From the UHGV virus genome UHGV-0088497: a DNA stretch of 27,542 nucleotides. One strand, given 5' to 3'. Below are positions 1-10,675 of the stretch, in pieces. Every line of letters starts with the position of its first letter. Position 1 is the first letter of the stretch. A program made the position numbers and the translations under genes. The notes under the pieces were generated by a model, which saw nothing but the letters and a program-made list of their open reading frames with translations, had not been told where the DNA came from and ran no database searches. The stretch comes from a virus.

Positions 1-33
1 AGGAAAACATGGTCAGGCAAAAGTGTAGCGGTA

Positions 34-213
34 TTAGGCGCAGCTATTTAGCACCTCATCAATCACATTCAACATATCAGCGAGAATGTAAGCTCTGTTC
101 CCGCCGTTAGAGTACTGGGTATCATGCTGCAGGTGTTCACGTATCTGGTGCAGGCGATCGACTGATACAGGACCGTTCGCCGGGTGGTTAGTTGTCATTG
201 AGCCTTTATTCAT
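34..213 (-). CDS. Hypothetical early-left protein (59 aa)
   Basis: This is the ORF-track frame 34..255. I start it at ATG 213, which has GAGG about 9 nt upstream and overlaps the upstream stop at 206 by 8 nt. No domain recognised. Confidence 0.5.
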   Translation of the reverse strand: MNKGSMTTNHPANGPVSVDRLHQIREHLQHDTQYSNGGNRAYILADMLNVIDEVLNSCA

Positions 214-463
214 TACTGTTGTCCTCGCAGCAGTAGTGGCGTCCTTCTGGGTCATCGGTTACAAATCCACACTCGCTACAGGTAAATTCATCTGGGGGAG
301 ATAAATCATCCTGACGGTTGTTATTACAAAAAGGATTACCATCACCGCCAGGCCACTCTTCAAGTTCGTCTTCACGCTGACAGTTCCGGCATAGGTCATT
401 GCCAGCCCACATATCCTCTTTGCATCGAGGGCAACGGTCTAAATCTTCATCTTTCACTGGCAT
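206..463 (-). CDS. Acidic Cys-rich zinc-ribbon-like protein (about 85 aa)
   Basis: The ORF-track frame 206..475 begins with TTG. ATG 463 or GTG 457 (behind AGGAGG at 470..465) is more plausible. Contains the motifs CPRC, CRNC and CSEC. Confidence 0.55.
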   Translation of the reverse strand: MPVKDEDLDRCPRCKEDMWAGNDLCRNCQREDELEEWPGGDGNPFCNNNRQDDLSPPDEFTCSECGFVTDDPEGRHYCCEDNSNE

Positions 464-570
464 CCCTCCTGGCAATCGTGGTTTTCTGGCTCATCGGCTT
501 TGTAATACCCGCCACAAACAGGGCAGATAACTAGCGGCGTCTCATCGTAATTTGAAGTTCCAGTAATCAT
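454..570 (-). CDS. Small zinc-ribbon-like protein (38 aa), missing from the ORF track
   Basis: Hand translation gives MITGTSNYDETPLVICPVCGGYYKADEPENHDCQEGCQ. Its ATG at 570 overlaps the TGA of the upstream gene (ATGA coupling). It has a CxxC...CxxxC pattern. Confidence 0.4.
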   Translation of the reverse strand: MITGTSNYDETPLVICPVCGGYYKADEPENHDCQEGCQ

Positions 571-821
571 TGTGCTGCTCCCTGTCTGGCTCTATTCAAT
601 AGCTGGTTAAACATCATGGTTAGGCTGTTACTGCACCCAAACGGCATATCGTTAACACGGTATGTTGGAATGCCCTTGCGAACACCTGACTTCACGATCC
701 GGCCTGTGCCATAGAGTTGCGATAATGCGCCAGCGACCGCGGGTGTCTTTTTGTTCATACCTTTGGCGATTTCACCGCTGGTGGTATTCGGATGAGCCTG
801 GAGATATTCAAATACGGTCAT
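567..821 (-). CDS. Small winged-helix DNA-binding protein, FaeA/PapI-like (84 aa)
   Basis: VFEYLQAHPNTTSGEIAKGM...LSQLYGTGRIV...TYRV matches the layout of PapI/FaeA-type wHTH regulators as I remember them. It sits in the ATGA-coupled chain. Confidence 0.6.
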   Translation of the reverse strand: MTVFEYLQAHPNTTSGEIAKGMNKKTPAVAGALSQLYGTGRIVKSGVRKGIPTYRVNDMPFGCSNSLTMMFNQLLNRARQGAAQ

Positions 822-985
822 GGCGTTTTACCTTTACGTTCCTGTTCCAGTTGCACCAGAGACTCTTTTAATGCTGCGAACGTAGCTTCCAGTCTGGTGG
901 CGACTTCGCGCATAAGCGGTGCATGCTTTGGTGGCAATTCAGCAACGGAGGCAAAAGCCTCAGCTACGAGTTCTTTTACCTTCAT
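818..985 (-). CDS. Hypothetical helical protein (55 aa), missing from the ORF track
   Basis: Hand translation gives MKVKELVAEAFASVAELPPKHAPLMREVATRLEATFAALKESLVQLEQERKGKTP. ATG 985 overlaps the TGA of the HD gene, and its own TGA (820..818) overlaps ATG 821 of the next gene. Confidence 0.45.
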   Translation of the reverse strand: MKVKELVAEAFASVAELPPKHAPLMREVATRLEATFAALKESLVQLEQERKGKTP

Positions 986-1521
986 GCGGCGCATTGGCGC
1001 AGCTCCACCAGTTCGTTAAAGCGATTCATGAACAGGCCATAGGCTTGACCAGGGCGGAGAGGGATTACCTGAACGAGATCAGAGCAGGGAATACCTTCGA
1101 GAATTTCCCACTTCGAACCATCATCGATTTCCATATCACGGCGCTCGGTGGCTAACATGGTTAGATCGGCATATTTCACGACAGCAGCTTGTTCAAGTGA
1201 GATACCGAATTTAAAGCGGATAAGACCATCAACATAAGTTTCCATGCGCTGATAGTCAGGCAGCAAGGCTTTGAGCGGGGCTGGAATATCCTGGCAATAT
1301 GCCTCCGCAGCGTCGTGCATCAGCGCTTCAAAGGCGAACTCTGGCGGCACAATCTGGCTTACAAGCACAGAGTGCTGGGCCACACTGTAGAACTCTGGCA
1401 GATGCCCAGCGAATCGACAGATGTTGGAAAGCGCCGTCGCGATATCCTCAACATCGATATCGTCGATTGTGGCGGTCAGGTAGTTAAATTTTTTACCGCA
1501 TAATGTCTGAATGTAGCTCAT
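982..1521 (-). CDS. yfdR: HD-domain 5'-nucleotidase/phosphohydrolase, YfdR-like
   Basis: It carries HD-family motifs (AQHSVLVS, LMHDAAEAYCQD). Its length and sequence closely recall E. coli K-12 CPS-53 prophage YfdR. I moved the start to ATG 1521, which has GGAGAAAACC upstream. Confidence 0.85.
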   Translation of the reverse strand: MSYIQTLCGKKFNYLTATIDDIDVEDIATALSNICRFAGHLPEFYSVAQHSVLVSQIVPPEFAFEALMHDAAEAYCQDIPAPLKALLPDYQRMETYVDGLIRFKFGISLEQAAVVKYADLTMLATERRDMEIDDGSKWEILEGIPCSDLVQVIPLRPGQAYGLFMNRFNELVELRQCAA

Positions 1522-1677
1522 GGTTTTCTCCATATTGGCGCGCTGCACCGCGCAGATTTTGTTTGCACGAATCCCTCGCCAAAAGGCGAATAAAAGTTTG
1601 GGTTTCGTTTCAGTAAATGCCCCATCTATAGGTATTTAGCGCAACGGGTTGCTCCATCGTTATTATGCTGTTGTGTT

Positions 1678-1712
1678 AAATAGCTACCAAGATAGGTAGT
1701 GAGTAGCTATTT
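1678..1712. repeat. Perfect 10-bp inverted repeat AAATAGCTAC-N15-GTAGCTATTT with a nested CTACC/GGTAG repeat
   Basis: Read directly from the sequence. It lies at the junction of the AT-rich membrane-gene module and the early-left operon leader. It could be an operator or an RNA hairpin. Confidence 0.6.
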
Positions 1713-1773
1713 AACTACAGCAATGATTAGAGTAATCTGGATATCCTAATGTCTTTATTTTTAAGGTTTTTTT

Positions 1774-2259
1774 GTGGCTAGTGAAAAAAAATTAAAAATT
1801 CCATTCGATACCAACAAAAACTATTACAGTGGAATTCGTGGTGTTTTGAGCGGTATTGTTTGCTCTATGATCGGTGTTTATATTACCGGGCTATTTAGCG
1901 GAGCTATTAGTGTTGCTCAGATTTTTGAAATGCCAATAGTTATCATCAGTGCTTGGGTCGCTTTGTGTGCTTCTTTGTGGGCGATATCATATAAATTTGA
2001 AGATAGGGTTATATGCACATTTGGTCGTAATTGGGATTGTCCTAGAACAGCGAACTTTTTTTTATTTTTGCTTTACATAATGATAGGTGTCTTTTGTTCA
2101 CTTATATTCGAGGCCTTTCTGAAGGGGGGGGCCTCCCGCTCCTTATATGTTTCAATGGCGGGCTTTTTAGTTTTCTTACGACTTTTTTGTTTCTTCAGCA
2201 TTAAGAACTATGCTCAAATACAAAGCAAATCTGTTGATGAAACTAACCATGAAAAGTAA
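1774..2259 (+). CDS. AT-rich 4-TM membrane protein (161 aa), a moron in the immunity region and candidate superinfection-exclusion factor
   Basis: GTG start with AAGG upstream. Four hydrophobic segments: GVLSGIVCSMIGVYITGLF, PIVIISAWVALCASLWAI, FFLFLLYIMIGVFCSLIF, LYVSMAGFLVFLRLFCFF. It has its own terminator and runs opposite to all neighbouring genes. Confidence 0.7.
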   Translation: MASEKKLKIPFDTNKNYYSGIRGVLSGIVCSMIGVYITGLFSGAISVAQIFEMPIVIISAWVALCASLWAISYKFEDRVICTFGRNWDCPRTANFFLFLLYIMIGVFCSLIFEAFLKGGASRSLYVSMAGFLVFLRLFCFFSIKNYAQIQSKSVDETNHEK

Positions 2260-2294
2260 CCTGTATTAATAGGGTATCCAGATTGTTAAAGAGC

Positions 2295-2318
2295 GAAGCG
2301 TCCGATGGGCGCTTTTTT
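2295..2318 (+). terminator. Rho-independent terminator of the membrane moron
   Basis: Stem AAGCGTCC / GGGCGCTT (one G-U pair) with a short loop, followed by TTTTTT at 2313..2318. Confidence 0.7.
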
Positions 2319-2400
2319 GTTGCCTGCGAATCATCCGGTTATTCATATGCCACCGGCGGCTACTTCGTGGGCGTCCTGCCTGTTCGCTGTTGATGAATGA

Positions 2401-2429
2401 AATCTAACTTAACTTAGCTTTGAGATCAA
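2401..2429 (-). promoter_or_regulatory. Candidate pL promoter (TTGATC-17-TAGATT on the minus strand) overlapping the operator CTAACTTAACTTAG (2404..2417)
   Basis: The 14-bp CTAA-N6-TTAG palindrome has the same form as the two OR sites. The hexamers and the 17-nt spacing were read from the reverse complement. Confidence 0.5.
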
Positions 2430-2483
2430 GAAAAAACACCAAACCATTCTTAGCTTGATGTTAAGAGGAAGGTTAGAGGTGGG

Positions 2484-3110
2484 TTAAAGTTCGTACTGAA
2501 CGCCTTTGACAACTCCGATAATCAGGCAATTACCGTTTATTGAAATGTTTGGATAGCGTGGATTCAAGGGAACTAAGAACTTTTGAGGCCCATCGATGAC
2601 GAGTTTTTTTACAGTAGCCTCGCTTGTCCCATCAAGCCTGGCTACGACTATCTTTCCATTAAATGGCTCTGCATCAGGATCTACTATGACCGTTGCCCCT
2701 TCTGGGATTGTGGGGAGCCCATTAGGGTTTGTCATCGAATCACCTTTGACCTCCAATGCAAAGGAGCTATCACCTATCCTGAGTGATGTTTCTACCCACT
2801 TATCTACTTCACTGAAAACTTCTGCTGCTTTACATTCTGTAAACTGTCCAGCCTGAACCCAAGATATCACCGGAATCCTTCGCATCTTGGTTATCAGATT
2901 CCCTTCGAATTCAGTGCCATAAAGTATGTAATCAATTGATGTGTTGAAATACTTTGCAAGTTTCGCAAGTGACTCACCGCCTGGCACATTAATGTCTTTT
3001 TCCCAATACCCAACCGCCACATCGCTAACACCACAGAACTTACCCAGTTCTTTCTGCGAGGTTTTAGTTATGCGCCTGAGAGCTTTGATGCGCTGACCGA
3101 CAGTTTCCAT
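2484..3110 (-). CDS. cI: cI-type prophage repressor (XRE HTH plus S24 LexA-like autopeptidase)
   Basis: N-terminal HTH (SQKELGKFCGVSDVAVGYWEKD), an Ala-Gly site (VQAGQ), the GDSM serine motif and a downstream KKL lysine. I start it at ATG 3110 (METVGQ); the ORF-track start at 3143 is a TTG. Confidence 0.9.
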   Translation of the reverse strand: METVGQRIKALRRITKTSQKELGKFCGVSDVAVGYWEKDINVPGGESLAKLAKYFNTSIDYILYGTEFEGNLITKMRRIPVISWVQAGQFTECKAAEVFSEVDKWVETSLRIGDSSFALEVKGDSMTNPNGLPTIPEGATVIVDPDAEPFNGKIVVARLDGTSEATVKKLVIDGPQKFLVPLNPRYPNISINGNCLIIGVVKGVQYEL

Positions 3111-3135
3111 TTGAACACCATAAAAAATTAAAAGG

Positions 3136-3198
3136 CTAAGCAATCTTAGTTTTTATTGACCAAAGTTAGATTGGTTATTAATATCTAATCAAACTTAG
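3136..3198 (+). promoter_or_regulatory. OR region with two CTAA-N6-TTAG operators, one ACCAA-N7-TTGGT palindrome and PR
   Basis: Operators CTAAGCAATCTTAG (3136..3149) and CTAATCAAACTTAG (3185..3198). Palindrome ACCAA-N7-TTGGT (3159..3175). PR is TTGACC (3156..3161), a 17-nt spacer and TAATAT (3179..3184). The region lies between divergent cI and cro. Confidence 0.65.
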
Positions 3199-3211
3199 CT
3201 AAGGGGGCATT

Positions 3212-3439
3212 ATGACAACCGATGATATTGAAAACTACTTCGGCAGTACTGAGAAAGTTGCCGAGTTTTTTGGAATCACAAGCGAGGCCGTTTACCAGTG
3301 GCGTAATAGAACTGGTCGCCTAATCCCGAAAGGACGTGCAGCAGAAGCAGCCTATCGGACTGGGGGAAAATTGGTTTTCCATCCCGACCTTTACGAAAAG
3401 CGTAGCGATGCTTCAGTAAAACTCAAACCACAGGAATAA
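3212..3439 (+). CDS. cro: Cro/YdaS-like HTH regulator (75 aa)
   Basis: Divergent from cI, with an AAGGGGG RBS. The motif KVAEFFGITSEAVYQWRNR...IPKGRAAEAAYRTGGKL is typical of the Cro/YdaS family. Confidence 0.75.
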   Translation: MTTDDIENYFGSTEKVAEFFGITSEAVYQWRNRTGRLIPKGRAAEAAYRTGGKLVFHPDLYEKRSDASVKLKPQE

Positions 3440-3449
3440 GGGGGGAGCT

Positions 3450-4001
3450 GTGGGTAACGAACCTATTTGGAAAGTCGAACGTCAGCCAGCCTGGCTGGTG
3501 GCGGCGATAAAAAAAACGATCACCGATCTTCCTGGTGGTTATGCCGAGGCGGCGGAATGGTTGGGCGTGACAGAGAACGCATTGTTCAACCGCCTTCGTG
3601 TTGACGGCGACCAAATCTTCCCGCTGGGCTGGGCAATGGTTTTACAACGTGCTGGTGGTTCAACTCATATTGCTGATGCCGTTGCGCGCCATTCTCAGGG
3701 CGTATTTGTACCGCTGGCAGATGTCGATGATCTGGATAACGCCGATATCAACCAGCGCCTGATGGAGTCCATCGAATGGATAGGCCGTCATTCGAATTTT
3801 GTACGTAAAGCCACGGCTGATGGGGTAATTGACGCAGATGAGCGTGCTCAGATTGAGGAAAACAGCTATCAGGTTATCGCGAAGTTCCAGGAGCACGTAA
3901 CGCTTCTTTATCGAGTTTTTTGTGTCGCTGAAAAGAGTGACGCCCGCGAGTGTGCAGCTCCGGGCGCCTTGGCGAACAACTCTTCGAGTATGGAGAAATA
4001 A
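3450..4001 (+). CDS. cII-like regulatory protein (Phage_CP76-type, 183 aa)
   Basis: It occupies the position after cro. An HTH-like stretch (GGYAEAAEWLGVTENALFNRLR) resembles the CP76/CII family as I remember it. GTG start. Confidence 0.55.
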   Translation: MGNEPIWKVERQPAWLVAAIKKTITDLPGGYAEAAEWLGVTENALFNRLRVDGDQIFPLGWAMVLQRAGGSTHIADAVARHSQGVFVPLADVDDLDNADINQRLMESIEWIGRHSNFVRKATADGVIDADERAQIEENSYQVIAKFQEHVTLLYRVFCVAEKSDARECAAPGALANNSSSMEK

Positions 4002-4353: not shown

Positions 4354-5209
4354 ATTAACCGGCTACGTATGGGATGGTTGCGCGGCGTCGGGCATGAAGT
4401 TGTCTAGTGTCGCGATCATGGCTCGACTCGCTGATTTCAGCAGTGATGAGGGCGTATGCTGGCCGTCAATTGAAACTATTGCTCGCCAGCTTGGCGCAGG
4501 CCCGAGCACTATCAGAACGGCAATCGCAAAGCTTGAAAAAGATGGCTGGCTCACGCGTACACAGCGCCGTAATGGTAACCGTAATGCTTCGAACGTGTAC
4601 CGCCTGAATGTGGCGAAACTTCAGGCTGCCGCATTTTCTCAACTGTCAGATTCTGACACATCAAAATCTGACGCATCAAAATTTGACACCTCAAAAACTG
4701 ACCCGTCGAAATCCGGCAAAAACGGCGGTTTTGACCCGTCAGAATCTGGCGGGGATCCGTCAGTAAAATCAAAACAAGATCCACAAGTAACTTTAAAACC
4801 CTCTTGTCCGGTTGCGGCGCAACCCGACCCTGAGGTTGTGATTACTGATCAGGCCAGACAGGTTTTGTCTTACCTGAACCAGACAACTGGTTCACGCTAC
4901 CAGGTATGCAGCACGTCGCTGGAGAACATTCGCGCCCGTCTGCGGGAACAGTTCACTGTTGATGATCTGTGCCTTGTGGTGGATTACAAAAACGCTGATT
5001 GGCGTGATAGCGAGCAGGCTCAATACCTCCGCCCGGCAACTCTGTTTATTCCAAAAAACTTCCCCGGTTACCTGCAAAGCGCGACCAAATGGTCTGCCGC
5101 TGGGCGACCTGAACGCGTTAACGGTAAATGGGCGACTAACTCAGCCAGCCGCGCAAACTTCCAAAATGTTGACTATTCACTGCCAGAAAATTCGGGGTTC
5201 CGCTCTTGA
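4343..5209 (+). CDS. Replication initiator, lambda-O-like (N-terminal wHTH plus conserved phage C-terminal domain)
   Basis: N-terminal HTH (WPSIETIARQLGAGPSTIRTAIAKLEKDGWL). Internal iteron array. The C-terminal block (QVLSYLNQTTGSRY...DDLCLVVDYK...YLRPATLF) resembles the phage conserved C-terminal replication domain. Confidence 0.8.
   Translation: MSTKLTGYVWDGCAASGMKLSSVAIMARLADFSSDEGVCWPSIETIARQLGAGPSTIRTAIAKLEKDGWLTRTQRRNGNRNASNVYRLNVAKLQAAAFSQLSDSDTSKSDASKFDTSKTDPSKSGKNGGFDPSESGGDPSVKSKQDPQVTLKPSCPVAAQPDPEVVITDQARQVLSYLNQTTGSRYQVCSTSLENIRARLREQFTVDDLCLVVDYKNADWRDSEQAQYLRPATLFIPKNFPGYLQSATKWSAAGRPERVNGKWATNSASRANFQNVDYSLPENSGFRS
4652..4760 (+). repeat. Iteron array (candidate ori) inside the O-like gene
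   Basis: Four tandem 15-bp units: TCTGACACATCAAAA, TCTGACGCATCAAAA, TTTGACACCTCAAAA, ACTGACCCGTCGAAA. After a 19-bp gap comes TTTGACCCGTCAGAA and a degenerate copy. The array encodes the SK-rich linker SDTSKSDASKFDTSKTDPSKS. Confidence 0.65.
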
Positions 5210-6525
5210 TGCCAAATAAATATTGCCAGGCGCTGGCAGAACTGCGCAGTAAACCAGCTCACGAATTGAAAGAAGTTGGAGATCAGTGGAGGACACCTGA
5301 TCTGCTTTTCTGGGGGATCAACGCGTTATTTGGCCCATTAGTTCTGGACTTGTTTGCTGACGACGACAACGCGAAATGCCCGGCATGGTACACCGCCGAA
5401 GATAACGCGCTGACCCAGGACTGGTCTGAACGTCTGGCAAAACTGGGTGGTGCAGGTTATGGCAACCCACCGTATAGCCGTTCGCAGTACCACGAGAAAC
5501 AGGCGATCACTGGTATGACGCACATCATGAAGTACGCAGCAGCCCAGCGCGAGAAGGGCGGTCGCTATGTATTCCTGATAAAAGCCGCGCCAAGTGAAAC
5601 GTGGTGGCCGGAAGATGCCGATCACATTGTATTCATTCGCGGGCGCATTGGGTTCGATCTGCCTGTGTGGTTTGTACCTGCTGACGAAAAACAGAAGCCC
5701 ACCAGCGCGTTTTTTGCCGGTGCCATAGCTGTATTCGATAAGTCATGGCGTGGTGAGCGGTTCAGCTATATCAACCGTACCGAACTGGAGGCAAAAGGGC
5801 GGGCGTTTATGACTTTGGCGCAATTTGCTGCCAGCAAGTCTCAACCTGCAACTGCCACACCATCTGTAGCTGACAAGCCAGAAGCAGAGTTGCCACTTAC
5901 CCAGAAAGATATTTTTGATATCAGCGGTGTCGAGGCGTGGGCATGCGTTAGAGCTGCGTTCGGCGATAAAGAAGAATACACATTTAGTGAATCGAAGTTT
6001 GGGCATACCTGGGCGGCGGATTCTGTCGAAGCACCGGAATTCACTCAGGTATCACCATTAACGATCGACAAAGCGAAGCTGCTTATTCGTGAGAGTATTT
6101 TGTTCGGTGTGGATGAGTGGCTGTTGTCGATTGAATTCGATGACGCTGCTGCGCGCCTGGATATGTCGGAACGTATTCGTACTGTTGCCCTTGAAGCATC
6201 TGGTGAATATGGCATGAACAGTACTGATTTCATTGCAGCTATGGGAAGCCTGGATGTTTCCAGTTGGTCCAATATTCGCCAGATCCGCATGCACATCCGT
6301 GAGAAAACTAAACCAGTATCGGATCCGCTTCCCGAGTCCCGTATCTGGCCGCTGGAGGTTGGAATTGTATTCGACCAGGTAGACGGCGCTGACATGCTGG
6401 ATGAATCACAGCAGAACAAGCTGAAAGCCAACATCAATCAACTCTGGCTGGAACGAACGGCCACCAGCGAAATCATTACTGCTGCTTCTGAACTTGTTCG
6501 CAATATGCGGGGAGAGGCCGCGTGA
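5209..6525 (+). CDS. Phage Dam-type N6-adenine DNA methyltransferase fused to an uncharacterised C-terminal domain of about 220 aa
   Basis: The N-terminal third has QWRTPDLLF...LDLFADDDNAKCPAWYT...GYGNPPYS (NPPY catalytic motif), typical of the phage Dam family. I recognise no domain in residues about 215-438. ATG 5209 overlaps the upstream TGA. Confidence 0.8.
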   Translation: MPNKYCQALAELRSKPAHELKEVGDQWRTPDLLFWGINALFGPLVLDLFADDDNAKCPAWYTAEDNALTQDWSERLAKLGGAGYGNPPYSRSQYHEKQAITGMTHIMKYAAAQREKGGRYVFLIKAAPSETWWPEDADHIVFIRGRIGFDLPVWFVPADEKQKPTSAFFAGAIAVFDKSWRGERFSYINRTELEAKGRAFMTLAQFAASKSQPATATPSVADKPEAELPLTQKDIFDISGVEAWACVRAAFGDKEEYTFSESKFGHTWAADSVEAPEFTQVSPLTIDKAKLLIRESILFGVDEWLLSIEFDDAAARLDMSERIRTVALEASGEYGMNSTDFIAAMGSLDVSSWSNIRQIRMHIREKTKPVSDPLPESRIWPLEVGIVFDQVDGADMLDESQQNKLKANINQLWLERTATSEIITAASELVRNMRGEAA

Positions 6526-8992: not shown

Positions 8993-9023
8993 AACATTAT
9001 GCCCCGTGTAGGGGCCTAATGTT
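8993..9023. terminator. 13-bp-stem hairpin between convergent Q and the 4-TM gene (no U-tract)
   Basis: AACATTATGCCCC gtgta GGGGCCTAATGTT with one mismatch. It overlaps the stop codon of the minus-strand gene. Confidence 0.45.
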
Positions 9024-9471
9024 ACAAGTGAGGGAAAATTCTACGCAGCACTAACCAACACCTACCAAATGTGCAAAGTGAAAGGAGCAGCGAAGACAAT
9101 CCTAACAGGAGAAATAAAAAATCAATTGGTTGAGCAAAGACCTTAACATCCTCTGGTAAGAACATAGCGATCAGTGGAAACAAGCAGGCCAAAATCAGCG
9201 TCAACCCTGTTGATAGCAAGCGATTTATCAATGTTGGTAATATATTATTCCTTTTGAGGGCGTTAATGGCCCCATCTTTGTCACTATCTGCGCTACTGAA
9301 TATAGATATAGCGGCGAGAACAAACCCAAAAAGAATTCCTGAAATTGTCGAAAGCACACCTGCTGTAGTTAACACATCAGCATGTTTCATAGGCTTAAAC
9401 AGTTTTGTCGCTGCATAAGTAATCAGAACTAAGAGGACCACTTTCCAAAAAAGAGTTAGAAATTCTCTCAT
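9022..9471 (-). CDS. 4-TM membrane protein (149 aa), RexB-like candidate effector
   Basis: GGGAGG RBS 5 nt upstream. Four hydrophobic helices at about residues 5-25, 34-60, 81-105 and 116-142. Size and topology match lambda RexB (144 aa). LSTISGILFGFVLAAISIF resembles RexB LSSYAGTMIAILIAALTFL as I remember it (unverified). Confidence 0.6.
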   Translation of the reverse strand: MREFLTLFWKVVLLVLITYAATKLFKPMKHADVLTTAGVLSTISGILFGFVLAAISIFSSADSDKDGAINALKRNNILPTLINRLLSTGLTLILACLFPLIAMFLPEDVKVFAQPIDFLFLLLGLSSLLLSLCTFGRCWLVLRRIFPHL

Positions 9472-9489: not shown

Positions 9490-10437
9490 TTACTGGTTTT
9501 TTTTTGCAAGCTCATACTGTGCAAGGTAATTTGCATTATCAATTTTAGCAGATATCATCGCCGTCCTGATATCAGAATCAGAAGGATAGCCGCTTTTTAC
9601 TACTATAGTTTTCGAGCCTATGAGCACTTGATCAAGTAGGCTTTTTGGCGCTGTATCTGATGGTTCTGTTACATCAATTTTCTTGATGTTTAGCCCGCCA
9701 GAGCCTTTGGGGAATAGTTCAAGCAGTTCTTTAATAGCATCAGTAACTGATGATTTAAGATAGTTGAAGCCTGCTCTTTTGGGACGAATGCGACCGCGCA
9801 TGTTAAGTCTCAGGTGTGAACCGCCCATACCAACCACCATATCAATGATGTCATTAGTAAGGTCATTCTTAATCTGATAATTAGCTTTATTGAAATTTCT
9901 TGGCGCTGCGACAGTGAGGTCAAAACTGCGAAGGATGTTCCCATCTTCAAGAAGTTCCTTCATGCTCTCGTGCTTCCAGATAGCCTCGAATGTAACATTT
10001 TTCATTTGTGTCTTGTTGTACAGAATGAAAGATAAATCATTCACTTTGGGGCCTAAATGGTTGAGAGTCATTGCTAGTAAATCTGTTTCAAAGTAGTAAA
10101 TAAAATATGTCCGTTCTACTACTGAATCTTTATCGCTAAGCGGTATCGTTCGCTCGCTTCCTGTGGTGCCATCCTCGATAAAAGGTAAGAGACAATCACG
10201 CCTCCACGAGACATACCCAAAATAACTCTGCTGCTTATCATCCTTTTCAAGAATGACAAGTTTTAAACCGCGGTTTTGGGTTTCTGCTGTCACCACTAAA
10301 GGGAATGTAACCGGAGTCGTGTTTGTCATTTGCTCGAATGCAAGTTTCGCTGTAGACAGACCGTCTTTTTTACTTCCATTTCCAGTGAAAAAGCCAACTC
10401 TTACGCGACGAGTTTTCTTCTTATCTTCTGTAGTCAT
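9490..10437 (-). CDS. Soluble 315-aa protein, RexA-like candidate sensor
   Basis: ATG 10437; the track start at 10443 is a TTG. It lies 18 bp upstream of the 4-TM gene on the same strand and is AT-rich. The block FETDLLAMTLNHLGPKVNDLSFIL resembles lambda RexA VEGDTIGFARTVFGPTTSDLTDFL as I remember it (unverified). Confidence 0.55.
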   Translation of the reverse strand: MTTEDKKKTRRVRVGFFTGNGSKKDGLSTAKLAFEQMTNTTPVTFPLVVTAETQNRGLKLVILEKDDKQQSYFGYVSWRRDCLLPFIEDGTTGSERTIPLSDKDSVVERTYFIYYFETDLLAMTLNHLGPKVNDLSFILYNKTQMKNVTFEAIWKHESMKELLEDGNILRSFDLTVAAPRNFNKANYQIKNDLTNDIIDMVVGMGGSHLRLNMRGRIRPKRAGFNYLKSSVTDAIKELLELFPKGSGGLNIKKIDVTEPSDTAPKSLLDQVLIGSKTIVVKSGYPSDSDIRTAMISAKIDNANYLAQYELAKKNQ

Positions 10438-10675
10438 TATCAATCCGATGAGAATTTCTGATAAACGGACGAAAAATACTATAAATAATTGAGAAGATCA
10501 TTAGCGCGGTCCGCAAAAAGTGATGTAACGTGTTAAGAGTGGTTACTTGGTCACATTGCTTAATCATCAAATTCAGCTTCTGAGTTTTGTTTTAACGATG
10601 CTTGATTGTGCGACTTATCTCTCTGAAACTTATCTTCTTTTCCTTGACTATGAATTTTCTATCTAAGGAGGTTCT

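What the first reader, a model, noticed from the sequence alone, without database searches (positions are those of the whole stretch)
1620..2430. AT-rich 4-TM membrane moron at the rex position, oriented head-on against the predicted pL promoter
The 161-aa 4-TM protein (1774..2259, plus strand) sits between cI and the early-left operon, exactly where lambda carries rexAB. It is on the opposite strand and has its own terminator. A pL-like promoter (TTGATC-17-TAGATT, minus strand, 2401..2429) overlaps an operator of the same CTAA-N6-TTAG form as the OR sites. It would fire leftward straight through this gene in antisense to reach the YfdR-like operon, which starts at 1521. That predicts mutually exclusive expression: the moron is on in the lysogen while pL is repressed, and it is silenced by convergent transcription after induction. 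The protein itself is a candidate superinfection-exclusion or Abi effector, with SieB-like or RexB-like topology but no partner gene.
Basis: inference. Interest (0 to 1): 0.6.

Follow-up and report, generated by a model that had tools for sequence, protein, structure and literature searches.

The report
Reverse-facing membrane gene behind new leader RNA
A small four-helix membrane gene sits backwards inside a prophage's early leftward operon, as the known exclusion gene sieB does, and the operon starts with a widespread structured leader RNA, absent from Rfam, followed by a boxA antitermination signal.

Summary
There is an AT-rich 161-aa ORF (1774..2259, +) with four TM helices, under purifying selection (dN/dS about 0.2). 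It has its own one-way terminator, and a pL-like promoter overlaps a significant CTAA-N6-TTAG operator. The gene is not at the rex position: it lies downstream of pL on the opposite strand, which is how lambda and Rac carry sieB. It is unrelated to SieB or RexB and has no fold match. Close and distant homologs always occupy this slot, which holds other cargo, including a true SieB, in related phages. A roughly 62-nt three-way-junction RNA (2326..2387, minus) starts at about +8 of the pL transcript. It is absent from Rfam, has strong covariation, and occurs across Enterobacterales, in a T5-like phage and in K-12 e14. An exact rrn-type boxA (2283..2294, minus) follows it. BoxA follows this RNA in about 24% of loci, against 0-3% in controls. 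pL must cross 873 nt of untranslated, C-rich antisense RNA, so boxA-mediated anti-Rho antitermination is the likely way through. The protein's exclusion role and the RNA's function remain inferred.

The parts
1774..2259 (+). 161-aa four-TM membrane protein gene (orphan family), reverse-oriented cargo inside the pL operon
   Evidence: ORF. 4 TM. dN/dS 0.10-0.23 against homologs. Only 6 close clusters and 10 distant representatives. No Pfam, PHROG or PADLOC hit.
2295..2315 (+). One-way intrinsic terminator of the membrane gene (T-run to about 2325)
   Evidence: 9-bp stem plus T-run. -12.1 kcal/mol on the + strand, against -7.4 kcal/mol and no U-run on the minus strand. The same module flanks different cargo genes in other phages.
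2283..2294 (-). boxA (GCTCTTTAACAA; with C2295 it reads CGCTCTTTAACAA) on the leftward transcript
   Evidence: Only copy in the window. Identical to the rrn boxA core ugcucuuuaacaa (PMC2724277). The boxA core follows the leader RNA in 37/155 loci, against 0-5/155 in eight controls.
2326..2387 (-). Structured leader RNA, a three-way junction. P1 2387-2383 with 2330-2326. Pa hairpin 2380-2378 with 2372-2370. Invariant single strand CACGAAGUAGC 2369-2359. P2 2358-2352 with 2339-2335 and 2333-2332. Conserved 12-nt loop 2351-2340.
   Evidence: 96.2 bits with model R1, single copy. Covariation: 98.1% paired against 75.6% in shuffles, and 96.4% against 73.9% in an independent genome set. No Rfam match.
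2401..2429 (-). pL-like promoter TTGATC-17-TAGATT (-35 2429-2424, -10 2406-2401); inferred TSS about 2394
   Evidence: Sequence. Aligns with the called promoters of SfV and ZF40. 8/12 to consensus, so the scan does not call it.
2404..2417 (.). OL operator CTAACTTAACTTAG overlapping the pL spacer and -10
   Evidence: 3 sites against 0.23 expected.
2435..2462 (-). Terminator of the cI transcript, upstream of pL
   Evidence: 12-pair stem plus T-run on the minus strand. Equivalent cI terminators precede pL in SfV, ST64B and ZF40.
2484..3110 (-). cI repressor (HTH_3 + Peptidase_S24)
   Evidence: Pfam 96 and 39.9 bits.
3136..3198 (.). OR operators (CTAAGCAATCTTAG at 3136, CTAATCAAACTTAG at 3185) between cI and cro
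982..1521 (-). YfdR-like deoxyribonucleoside 5'-monophosphate phosphatase, the first translated gene of the early-left operon
   Evidence: phrog_318 at 310 bits. 873 nt of untranslated leader separate it from the inferred pL start.
1522..2282 (-). Untranslated, C-rich antisense stretch that pL transcription must cross
   Evidence: 761 nt, C/G 1.30 against 0.99 in the downstream coding region. C>G tract about 2074-1892. Longest ORF 42 codons.
1662..1690 (-). Promoter-like match TTGGTA-17-CATAAT facing left (a possible independent early-left promoter; not significant)
   Evidence: 9/12. 2 such matches found against 4.6 expected in the region.
1679..1713 (.). Perfect 9-bp inverted repeat AATAGCTAC-N15-GTAGCTATT upstream of the membrane gene, conserved within the cassette
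   Evidence: Seen in the sequence, picked up as a stem by cmsearch, invariant in five cassette copies.

Best explanation
The 161-aa gene is a genuine, rare, horizontally exchanged cargo gene (moron). It occupies a recurrent slot at the head of the early-left (pL) operon in reverse orientation. Lambda, P22 and Rac carry sieB in this way; rexAB are placed differently. The slot begins just after a roughly 62-nt structured leader RNA that starts about 8 nt into the pL transcript. In the lysogen, cI bound at the operator over pL keeps leftward transcription off, and the membrane gene can be transcribed rightward and stopped by its own one-way terminator (shown: the anatomy; inferred: expression). 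After induction, pL fires. The nascent RNA first forms the leader structure and then exposes an exact boxA, which recruits NusB/S10 and the Nus complex. The modified polymerase resists Rho across 873 nt of untranslated, C-rich RNA antisense to the membrane gene and reaches the YfdR-like genes (inferred from known boxA biology). Head-on transcription then opposes the membrane gene (inferred; the excludon logic). From its position and topology, the protein is most likely a membrane-level superinfection-exclusion or abortive-infection effector (inferred from position only). The role of the leader RNA is unknown. Its fixed place at the 5' end of pL transcripts and its recurrent pairing with boxA point to a co-transcriptional role in making early-left transcription processive.
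For: Gene reality: dN/dS 0.10-0.23 and conserved motifs across 14 family members. Slot: all close homologs and distant ones lie between a repressor gene and the leftward operon, on the opposite strand, in at least five immunity types including Rac-type. The same slot holds a true SieB (PF14163, 77 bits) in L079 and other unrelated cargo elsewhere. Lambda and Rac annotations show sieB placed the same way. Leader RNA: single copy at 96.2 bits, covariation in two data sets, G.U pairs valid only on the leftward strand, always at a fixed distance from a promoter preceded by a cI terminator. boxA: exact match, enriched 37/155 against 0-5/155, median +33, in at least 8 unrelated contexts. Need for anti-Rho: 873-nt untranslated leader, C/G 1.30. 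BoxA protects untranslated RNA from Rho (PMC7665894). One-way terminator. The ST64B leader carrying the same RNA is induced together with lytic genes and is read through a terminator (PMC7067206). sieB-ydaF and ymfI-ymfJ are listed as convergent excludons.
Against: No promoter for the membrane gene was found, so expression in the lysogen is unproven. The window's pL matches the consensus at only 8/12. A leftward promoter-like site at 1690..1662 inside the cassette could feed the YfdR-like genes without pL. The protein has no sequence or fold similarity to any exclusion protein. About 76% of loci with the leader RNA lack a consensus boxA within 400 nt, and co-oriented intrinsic terminators are not enriched after the RNA, so the RNA need not be an antitermination device. 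No boxB hairpin or N gene was found in the window.
Confidence: 0.55

Rival explanations
1. The cassette carries its own outward-facing promoter (1690..1662, TTGGTA-17-CATAAT) that drives the YfdR-like operon. pL transcripts are then not needed beyond the leader, and the membrane gene is not subject to head-on transcription.
For: A 9/12 promoter-like match on the leftward strand lies inside the conserved cassette and overlaps a perfect 9-bp inverted repeat that could be an operator.
Against: Matches of this quality are not above chance (2 found against 4.6 expected). An exact boxA on the leftward strand upstream of the gene would then have no purpose. The terminator is weak leftward.
Confidence: 0.15
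2. The leader RNA is itself a put-like, protein-independent antiterminator or anti-pausing RNA that binds RNA polymerase, and boxA is an accessory.
For: It sits at the same position as HK022 and HK639 putL, immediately after pL. It has a very conserved core with covarying stems. No conserved adjacent protein partner exists. It is present in a T5-like phage that uses host polymerase. The ST64B leader is read through a terminator.
Against: The covariance model gives no score on HK022 or HK639 put. The RNA coexists with N-like genes and boxA-hairpin nut-like sites in Xenorhabdus and Photorhabdus prophages. Co-oriented terminators are not enriched downstream. There is no second copy in the pR operon.
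Confidence: 0.25
3. The leader RNA acts after transcription. It could be a 5' stabiliser or processing signal for the pL mRNA, or a binding site or sponge for a host RNA-binding protein, for example through the conserved GGA in the Pa loop.
For: It is a 5'-terminal structured element. GGA is kept in the Pa loop despite loop-length changes (AGGAC, AAGGAAA, AUGGA, ACGGAUA). Most loci lack boxA.
Against: No direct evidence exists. The boxA association is directional and strong where present.
Confidence: 0.2
4. The membrane protein is not a defence factor. It could be a small transporter or channel, an immunity protein or a lysis regulator, or another kind of lysogenic-conversion or housekeeping membrane protein.
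For: No match to any defence model. Generic four-helix bundle. A weak sub-threshold EutH hit (16 bits).
Against: Its location is strictly conserved at the slot that holds sieB in lambda, Rac and L079. It is a single gene with no metabolic neighbours.
Confidence: 0.35

Closest known systems
sieB of lambda, P22 and the Rac prophage (superinfection exclusion protein B, PF14163)
   Same: A single small membrane-protein gene embedded in the early-left operon on the opposite strand, downstream of pL. A true SieB occupies the same slot behind the same leader RNA in L079. Distant homologs of the window protein replace sieB in Rac-type prophages. sieB-ydaF is reported as a convergent excludon.
   Different: No sequence relationship (no Pfam hit; hhalign probability 0.1%). 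Four TM helices spanning the whole protein. No evidence of an internal Esc-type start or a sas-type antisense RNA.
RexB of lambda
   Same: Small protein (144 aa against 161 aa) with four TM segments, encoded near the immunity region.
   Different: rexB lies between cI and oL on the cI strand, is co-transcribed with cI and needs RexA. The window gene is downstream of pL, on the opposite strand, with no partner. hhalign probability 0.1%.
HK022 putL and the HK639 putL-like antiterminator RNA
   Same: A structured RNA encoded immediately downstream of pL. HK639 has a copy only in the left operon.
   Different: The covariance model does not score either put RNA. The architecture is a three-way junction, not two tandem stem-loops. 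It coexists with N-like genes in some phages. Antitermination activity has not been shown.
BoxA/Nus-factor antitermination (rrn operons, CRISPR arrays) and lambda nutL
   Same: Exact rrn-type boxA core near the 5' end of a long untranslated transcript. BoxA is known to block premature Rho termination of untranslated RNA (PMC7665894). Lambda pL also crosses sieB in antisense under N/nutL control.
   Different: No boxB hairpin and no N gene were found in the window. boxA is preceded by an additional conserved structured RNA not known from rrn or lambda.

Membership tests
SieB (PF14163) | Sequence membership in the SieB family | tested here: not met
   No Pfam hit. hhalign of the family alignment against lambda SieB gives probability 0.1%.
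SieB (PF14163) | Gene lies inside the early-left operon on the strand opposite to pL | tested here: met
   Window layout compared with the lambda and Rac annotations.
SieB (PF14163) | Aborts or excludes superinfecting phage when expressed from the prophage | not testable with these tools
   Needs plating and infection assays.
RexAB | Located between cI and oL/pL, on the cI strand, co-transcribed with cI | tested here: not met
   Lambda annotation. The window gene is downstream of pL and on the opposite strand.
RexAB | Two-component system: RexB channel plus RexA sensor | tested here: not met
   No partner ORF in the cassette in any of 12 loci.
RexAB | Sequence or profile similarity to RexB | tested here: not met
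   hhalign probability 0.1%.
HK022-type put RNA | Sequence and structure similarity to putL or putR | tested here: not met
   cmsearch with filters off finds no hit in the HK022 or HK639 put regions.
HK022-type put RNA | Encoded just downstream of an early promoter and acts in cis | tested here: inconclusive
   The position requirement is met. Action in cis is not testable here.
HK022-type put RNA | Substitutes for N in phages that lack N | tested here: not met
   The RNA coexists with N-like genes (ARM motif; PF25694 at 22-27.5 bits, just under the 27.9 cutoff) and boxA-hairpin sites in Xenorhabdus and Photorhabdus loci.
Lambda-type nut site | boxA followed by a boxB hairpin, plus an N gene | tested here: not met
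   boxA is present. No boxB-like hairpin was seen after it by eye, and no N-like gene lies in the window's left arm.
BoxA/Nus antitermination | Consensus boxA on the nascent RNA near the start of a long untranslated transcript | tested here: met
   GCTCTTTAACAA at 2283..2294 on the minus strand equals the rrn boxA core. 761 nt of untranslated RNA follow it.
BoxA/Nus antitermination | NusB/S10 and SuhB recruitment and Rho resistance | not testable with these tools
   Needs ChIP, bicyclomycin and nus-mutant reporter assays.
Any Rfam family | Match to a curated covariance model | tested here: not met
   No hit at E<=1 on 1400..3500 and none at the gathering score in the whole window.

The most novel reading that the evidence does not exclude
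The 62-nt three-way-junction leader RNA is a new class of phage regulatory RNA. It acts co-transcriptionally on host RNA polymerase, alone or together with boxA and the Nus factors, to make early-left transcription processive without a phage protein. It thereby creates a protected landing pad where reverse-oriented defence genes can be inserted without cutting off the operon.
Probability: 0.3. Interest if true: 0.8.

Novelty: new variant of a known kind. Interest (0 to 1): 0.6.

Why it matters
The larger result is the leader RNA. A match to the ~210-bp segment that carries it occurs in about a quarter of complete E. coli genomes, and the RNA itself is found across Enterobacterales, in a lytic T5-like phage and in K-12's e14 prophage. 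It has clear covariation, yet no Rfam family and no paper in the searchable library contains its core sequence. Its recurrent pairing with boxA suggests an undescribed layer of early-transcription control in temperate phages. It also gives a rationale for how phages tolerate reverse-oriented cargo inside an essential operon. Both the RNA and the protein are directly testable in standard strains.

Tried and rejected
- **Rfam.** Searched the region at E<=1 and the whole window at the gathering score: nothing.
- **Protein families and folds.** Pfam, PHROGs and PADLOC give nothing for the protein except a sub-threshold EutH hit. Foldseek against PDB and BFVD has no match below E 0.4. afdb50 was unavailable.
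- **RexB and SieB.** Profile comparison gives no relation.
- **Homology to HK022 or HK639 put.** Rejected by the covariance model. The King 2011 paper on put-like RNAs could not be read.
- **A second, pR-side copy of the RNA.** None found.
- **My first structure.** A long-range P1b pairing (cols 12-14 with 32-34) was replaced by the local Pa hairpin after indels were seen in its loop.
- **STnc1310 of ST64B as the same RNA.** Rejected: it maps about 140 nt downstream.
- **Enrichment of co-oriented intrinsic terminators after the RNA.** Not found.
- **A conserved partner protein encoded next to the RNA.** Not found.
- **Single-sequence folding of the region.** Gave no signal (z = 0.77), so the structure rests on covariation only.
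- **Promoter for the membrane gene.** None recognisable.
- **Riboswitch paper mentioning ymfK.** It refers to a different locus.
Full report
**1. The observation**

The window is the immunity and early region of a lambdoid prophage.
- cI lies at 2484..3110 (minus strand; HTH_3 plus Peptidase_S24).
- A P22-Cro-type cro lies at 3212..3439 and a cII-like gene at 3450..4001.
- On the left, a YfdR-like dNMP phosphatase starts at 1521 on the minus strand.
- Further right are Dam, RusA, Rha/ANT, DUF968 and a Q antiterminator.

Between cI and the YfdR-like gene lies the reported ORF.
- It spans 1774..2259 on the + strand, with a GTG start, and encodes 161 aa.
- It sits in a trough of GC 0.33-0.39, against about 0.5 in the flanks.
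- It has four hydrophobic segments and a confident four-helix model (pLDDT 82.5, pTM 0.73).
- A 9-bp hairpin plus T-run at 2295..2315 ends it.

TTGATC-17-TAGATT is present on the minus strand at 2429..2401. CTAA-N6-TTAG occurs three times, once over that promoter and twice between cI and cro, against 0.23 expected. There are two caveats: the promoter matches the consensus at only 8/12 and the scan does not call it, and no promoter for the ORF itself was found.

**2. The gene is real but nearly an orphan**

It has no DNA match in 50,697 phage records or 5,426 complete E. coli genomes. Only six protein clusters match closely, at 89-94% identity, in Kluyvera, Citrobacter and Atlantibacter. An exhaustive profile-free search of 1.8 billion representatives finds ten more, at 26-52% identity and 145-163 aa. 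dN/dS is 0.20-0.23 among close copies and 0.10 to a 52% homolog, and the family alignment keeps N14, Y17, Y18, G20, S31, G34, C108 and F138.

There is no Pfam, PHROG or PADLOC assignment. Profile similarity to lambda RexB or SieB is absent (probability 0.1%). No structural neighbour appears in PDB or BFVD (best E about 0.5).

**3. Position: sieB-like, not rex-like**

Lambda's own annotation places rexA and rexB between cI and oL on the cI strand, which is upstream of pL. It places sieB on the opposite strand inside the pL operon, between N and ral. In Rac, sieB likewise sits reversed within the racR-ydaG-ydaF-kilS-kilR leftward operon.

Every homolog examined keeps this position. That covers eight loci of close relatives with four different repressor types, a 52% homolog, and a 34% homolog in Rac-type prophages, between a Phage_CI_repr repressor and KilR/YdfE, where Rac has sieB.

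The gene travels in a block of about 790 bp (window about 1530-2320) that is 92-95% identical between loci whose pL and operator sequences differ.

**4.

The segment 2267..2480 is the only part of the region with matches elsewhere. It is found in 52 phage records and 1,426 of 5,426 E. coli genomes, and is almost never annotated.

Its core always lies just downstream of the repressor gene and in the leftward orientation. From these, 85 distinct 72-nt versions align without gaps.

The first structure tested (P1, P2 and a long-range P1b) gave strong results:
- 98.1% of cells paired, against 75.6% in shuffles (0 of 500 reach the observed value) and 18-51% with slid partners.
- Nine of 13 pairs have double compensatory changes, with up to six pair types each.

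A genome scan with a looser pattern gave about 75 true members among the first 100 of the 120 sampled genome loci. They span Kosakonia, Kluyvera, Leclercia, Xenorhabdus, Photorhabdus, Yersinia, Serratia, Pantoea, Erwinia, Rouxiella, Klebsiella, Enterobacter, Citrobacter and Buttiauxella, and one Pseudomonas.

The divergent members refine the model:
- P1 has 5 bp.
- A small hairpin Pa (GGC-loop-GCC) has a loop that varies from 5 to 7 nt but keeps GGA.
- An invariant single strand reads CACGAAGUAGC.
- P2 has 7 bp with a bulged A.
- P2 carries a conserved 12-nt loop, GGCRUAYGAAnn.

On this independent set the refined structure gives 96.4% paired against 73.9% in shuffles and 21-44% slid. Ten of 15 pairs show double changes. 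The two added P2 pairs are mostly U.G or G.U (87 cells), which are valid only on the leftward strand.

Two caveats apply. The invariance of the anchor words is partly imposed by the way the sequences were retrieved, although the covariation in P1 and P2 is not. Pa never varies, so indel placement is its only support.

Other properties of the RNA:
- Rfam 15 has no match, and no paper in the library contains the core sequence.
- The covariance model finds one copy in the window (96.2 bits) and does not score HK022 putL or the annotated HK639 putL-like RNA.
- Copies with covarying stems occur in a T5-like Providencia phage (67 bits) and an Aeromonas phage (61 bits). There are none in lambda or in Rac-type loci.
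- E. coli K-12 carries a copy in prophage e14, between ymfK and ymfJ (73 bits, NC_000913.3 about 1,202,107-1,202,179, minus strand), and it is unannotated.

**5. The RNA is the 5' leader of the pL transcript**

In SfV and ZF40 the scan independently calls strong promoters (11/12 and 10/12) ending 13-16 nt before P1. In SfV, ST64B and ZF40 a cI terminator lies upstream of the pL position. The window, Kati and ST64B align to the same positions with their own -35 and -10 hexamers and immunity-specific operators. P1 therefore starts at about +8 to +11.

Published transcriptomics of the ST64B prophage show that the region downstream of its cI is induced together with the lytic genes (PMC7067206).
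- That region includes ncRNA STnc1310, which I map about 140 nt downstream of the element and which ends at a co-oriented terminator.
- TPM is about 2,250-2,370 for STnc1310 and about 1,085-1,280 for the next gene, so there is partial read-through.

**6. boxA**

Immediately 3' of the RNA on the leftward strand the window has GCTCTTTAACAA (2283..2294), its only copy. This is identical to the rrn boxA core (PMC2724277 Table 1).

Across loci, the core GCTCTT[TA]A lies on the sense strand within 400 nt after the RNA in 37 of 155 cases, at a median position of +33. Eight strand and position controls give 0-5 of 155. It appears in at least eight unrelated flanking contexts.

In Xenorhabdus and Photorhabdus prophages boxA is followed by a hairpin, with a lambda-like GAAAA loop in L250. 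In most of those loci the first gene after it has an arginine-rich N-terminal motif, and two of the three such proteins scanned match Pfam N_peptide just below its cutoff. The RNA therefore coexists with N-type systems and does not replace them.

In the window and its relatives, boxA is fused to the rightward-facing terminator. Behind that pair lies a reverse-oriented cargo gene of at least 130 aa in 30 of 41 boxA loci, against 18 of 153 loci without boxA. The cargo differs between phages:
- the four-TM protein;
- a 2-TM plus soluble protein (phrog_6315);
- a soluble protein (phrog_5286);
- an LprI-like secreted protein.

A true SieB occupies the same slot in L079, though without boxA.

**7. 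Mechanism**

Shown:
- The terminator hairpin is directional: -12.1 kcal/mol with a T-run rightward, against -7.4 kcal/mol with no U-run leftward.
- No leftward intrinsic terminator lies in 1..2450.
- From the inferred start (about 2394) to the YfdR-like ATG (1521) there are 873 nt with no ORF longer than 42 codons.
- After boxA the RNA has C/G 1.30, against 0.99 in the downstream genes, with a continuous C>G tract at about 2074-1892.

Established knowledge: BoxA nucleates the Nus complex and prevents premature Rho termination of untranslated RNA (PMC7665894). Lambda pL likewise crosses sieB in antisense under N/nutL control.

Inferred:
- After induction, pL transcripts form the leader, load Nus factors at boxA, resist Rho across the antisense stretch and reach the early-left genes.
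- cI at the operator blocks this in the lysogen.
- Head-on transcription then opposes the membrane gene. Convergent pairs of this type, sieB-ydaF and ymfI-ymfJ, are reported as excludons in K-12 (PMC12288877).

**8. What remains open**

- The membrane gene's promoter is unknown. A perfect 9-bp inverted repeat at 1679..1713 and a leftward 9/12 promoter-like match at 1690..1662 lie upstream, and the latter is not above chance. An independent early-left promoter cannot be excluded.
- The protein's role rests on position only.
- The leader RNA's function is unknown. Co-oriented terminators are not enriched after it, no partner protein is encoded beside it, and most loci lack a consensus boxA. A put-like action on polymerase, help in Nus complex assembly, and a post-transcriptional role all remain possible.

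**9. Verdict**

The finding is a real but fairly ordinary kind of arrangement, a sieB-type reverse cargo gene, carrying a new orphan membrane family. The unexpected result is the conserved, uncatalogued leader RNA with its boxA partner, which raises the interest of the locus.

Noticed in passing
L002 (ST64B) 3067-3222; L133 about 4484-4690; L135 about 4484-4900: A second structured module of about 150-170 nt, closed by a roughly 16-bp stem (GTGTCTTCGGGAGGGG ... CCCCGCCCGAAGATAC), follows the leader RNA in ST64B and many viral contigs. It forms the 'insertion' between the RNA and the terminator/boxA in L133 and L135. It has no Rfam match.
   Followed up: partly
L002 (ST64B) about 3210-3285: The published ncRNA STnc1310 maps here, inside the pL leader, and ends at a co-oriented terminator (CTGGCGG...CCGCCAGCTTTTT) that the simple scan missed. 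The genes beyond it are still induced, which implies read-through.
   Followed up: partly
NC_000913.3 about 1,202,107-1,202,179 (L263 6608-6680, minus): E. coli K-12 prophage e14 carries an unannotated copy of the leader RNA between ymfK and ymfJ. Just downstream, ymfI is reverse-oriented and is listed with ymfJ as a convergent excludon.
   Followed up: partly
L005 (Providencia phage PR1, T5-like) 1480-1553: A lytic T5-like phage has the leader RNA, with covarying stems and a 2-nt loop insertion, in its terminal repeat. A boxA-like GCTCTTTAAAAA follows at +11, ahead of an early gene.
   Followed up: partly
window 9022..9471 and 9490..10443 (minus strand): Two reverse-oriented ORFs (149 and 317 aa) with no Pfam match sit immediately after the Q antiterminator gene, at the position where Stx phages carry toxin cargo. 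This may be a second moron locus.
   Followed up: no
window 2124..2131: An 8-G homopolymer lies inside the membrane gene (AAG GGG GGG GCC). Homologs have GGGGAGTG or GGGTAATG here, so this is a possible slipped-strand or sequencing-error site.
   Followed up: no
window 1679..1713: A perfect 9-bp inverted repeat AATAGCTAC-N15-GTAGCTATT, with an inner CTACC/GGTAG pair, lies about 60-95 nt upstream of the membrane gene's start and is invariant in five cassette copies. It could be an operator or an RNA hairpin.
   Followed up: no
window 1538..1590; L002 5050-5069; L001 5302-5315: The 5' UTR of the yfdR-like gene is conserved across phages. It contains a rightward-facing terminator-like hairpin (GCGCGCTGCACCGCGC + AGATTTTGTT) and a UCGCC-UUUU-GGCGA hairpin on the leftward RNA.
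   Followed up: no
L008, L025, L054, L071, L104, L099 (reverse ORF just after the leader RNA): The commonest alternative cargo in the slot is a protein of about 150-166 aa with two N-terminal TM helices and a soluble C-terminal domain (phrog_6315, function unknown). It has no Pfam or PADLOC hit and is a candidate defence gene.
   Followed up: partly
L002 (ST64B) 745-933 and 3355-3473: The ST64B right operon has Rfam C4 antisense RNA (79.7 bits) and isrK (64.3 bits). Its pL leader has a sub-threshold STnc100 match (35 bits against a cutoff of 47). The window has none of these.
   Followed up: no
window 5206..6525: A Dam-type methyltransferase domain (residues 19-199) is fused to an uncharacterised C-terminal extension of about 240 aa.
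   Followed up: no
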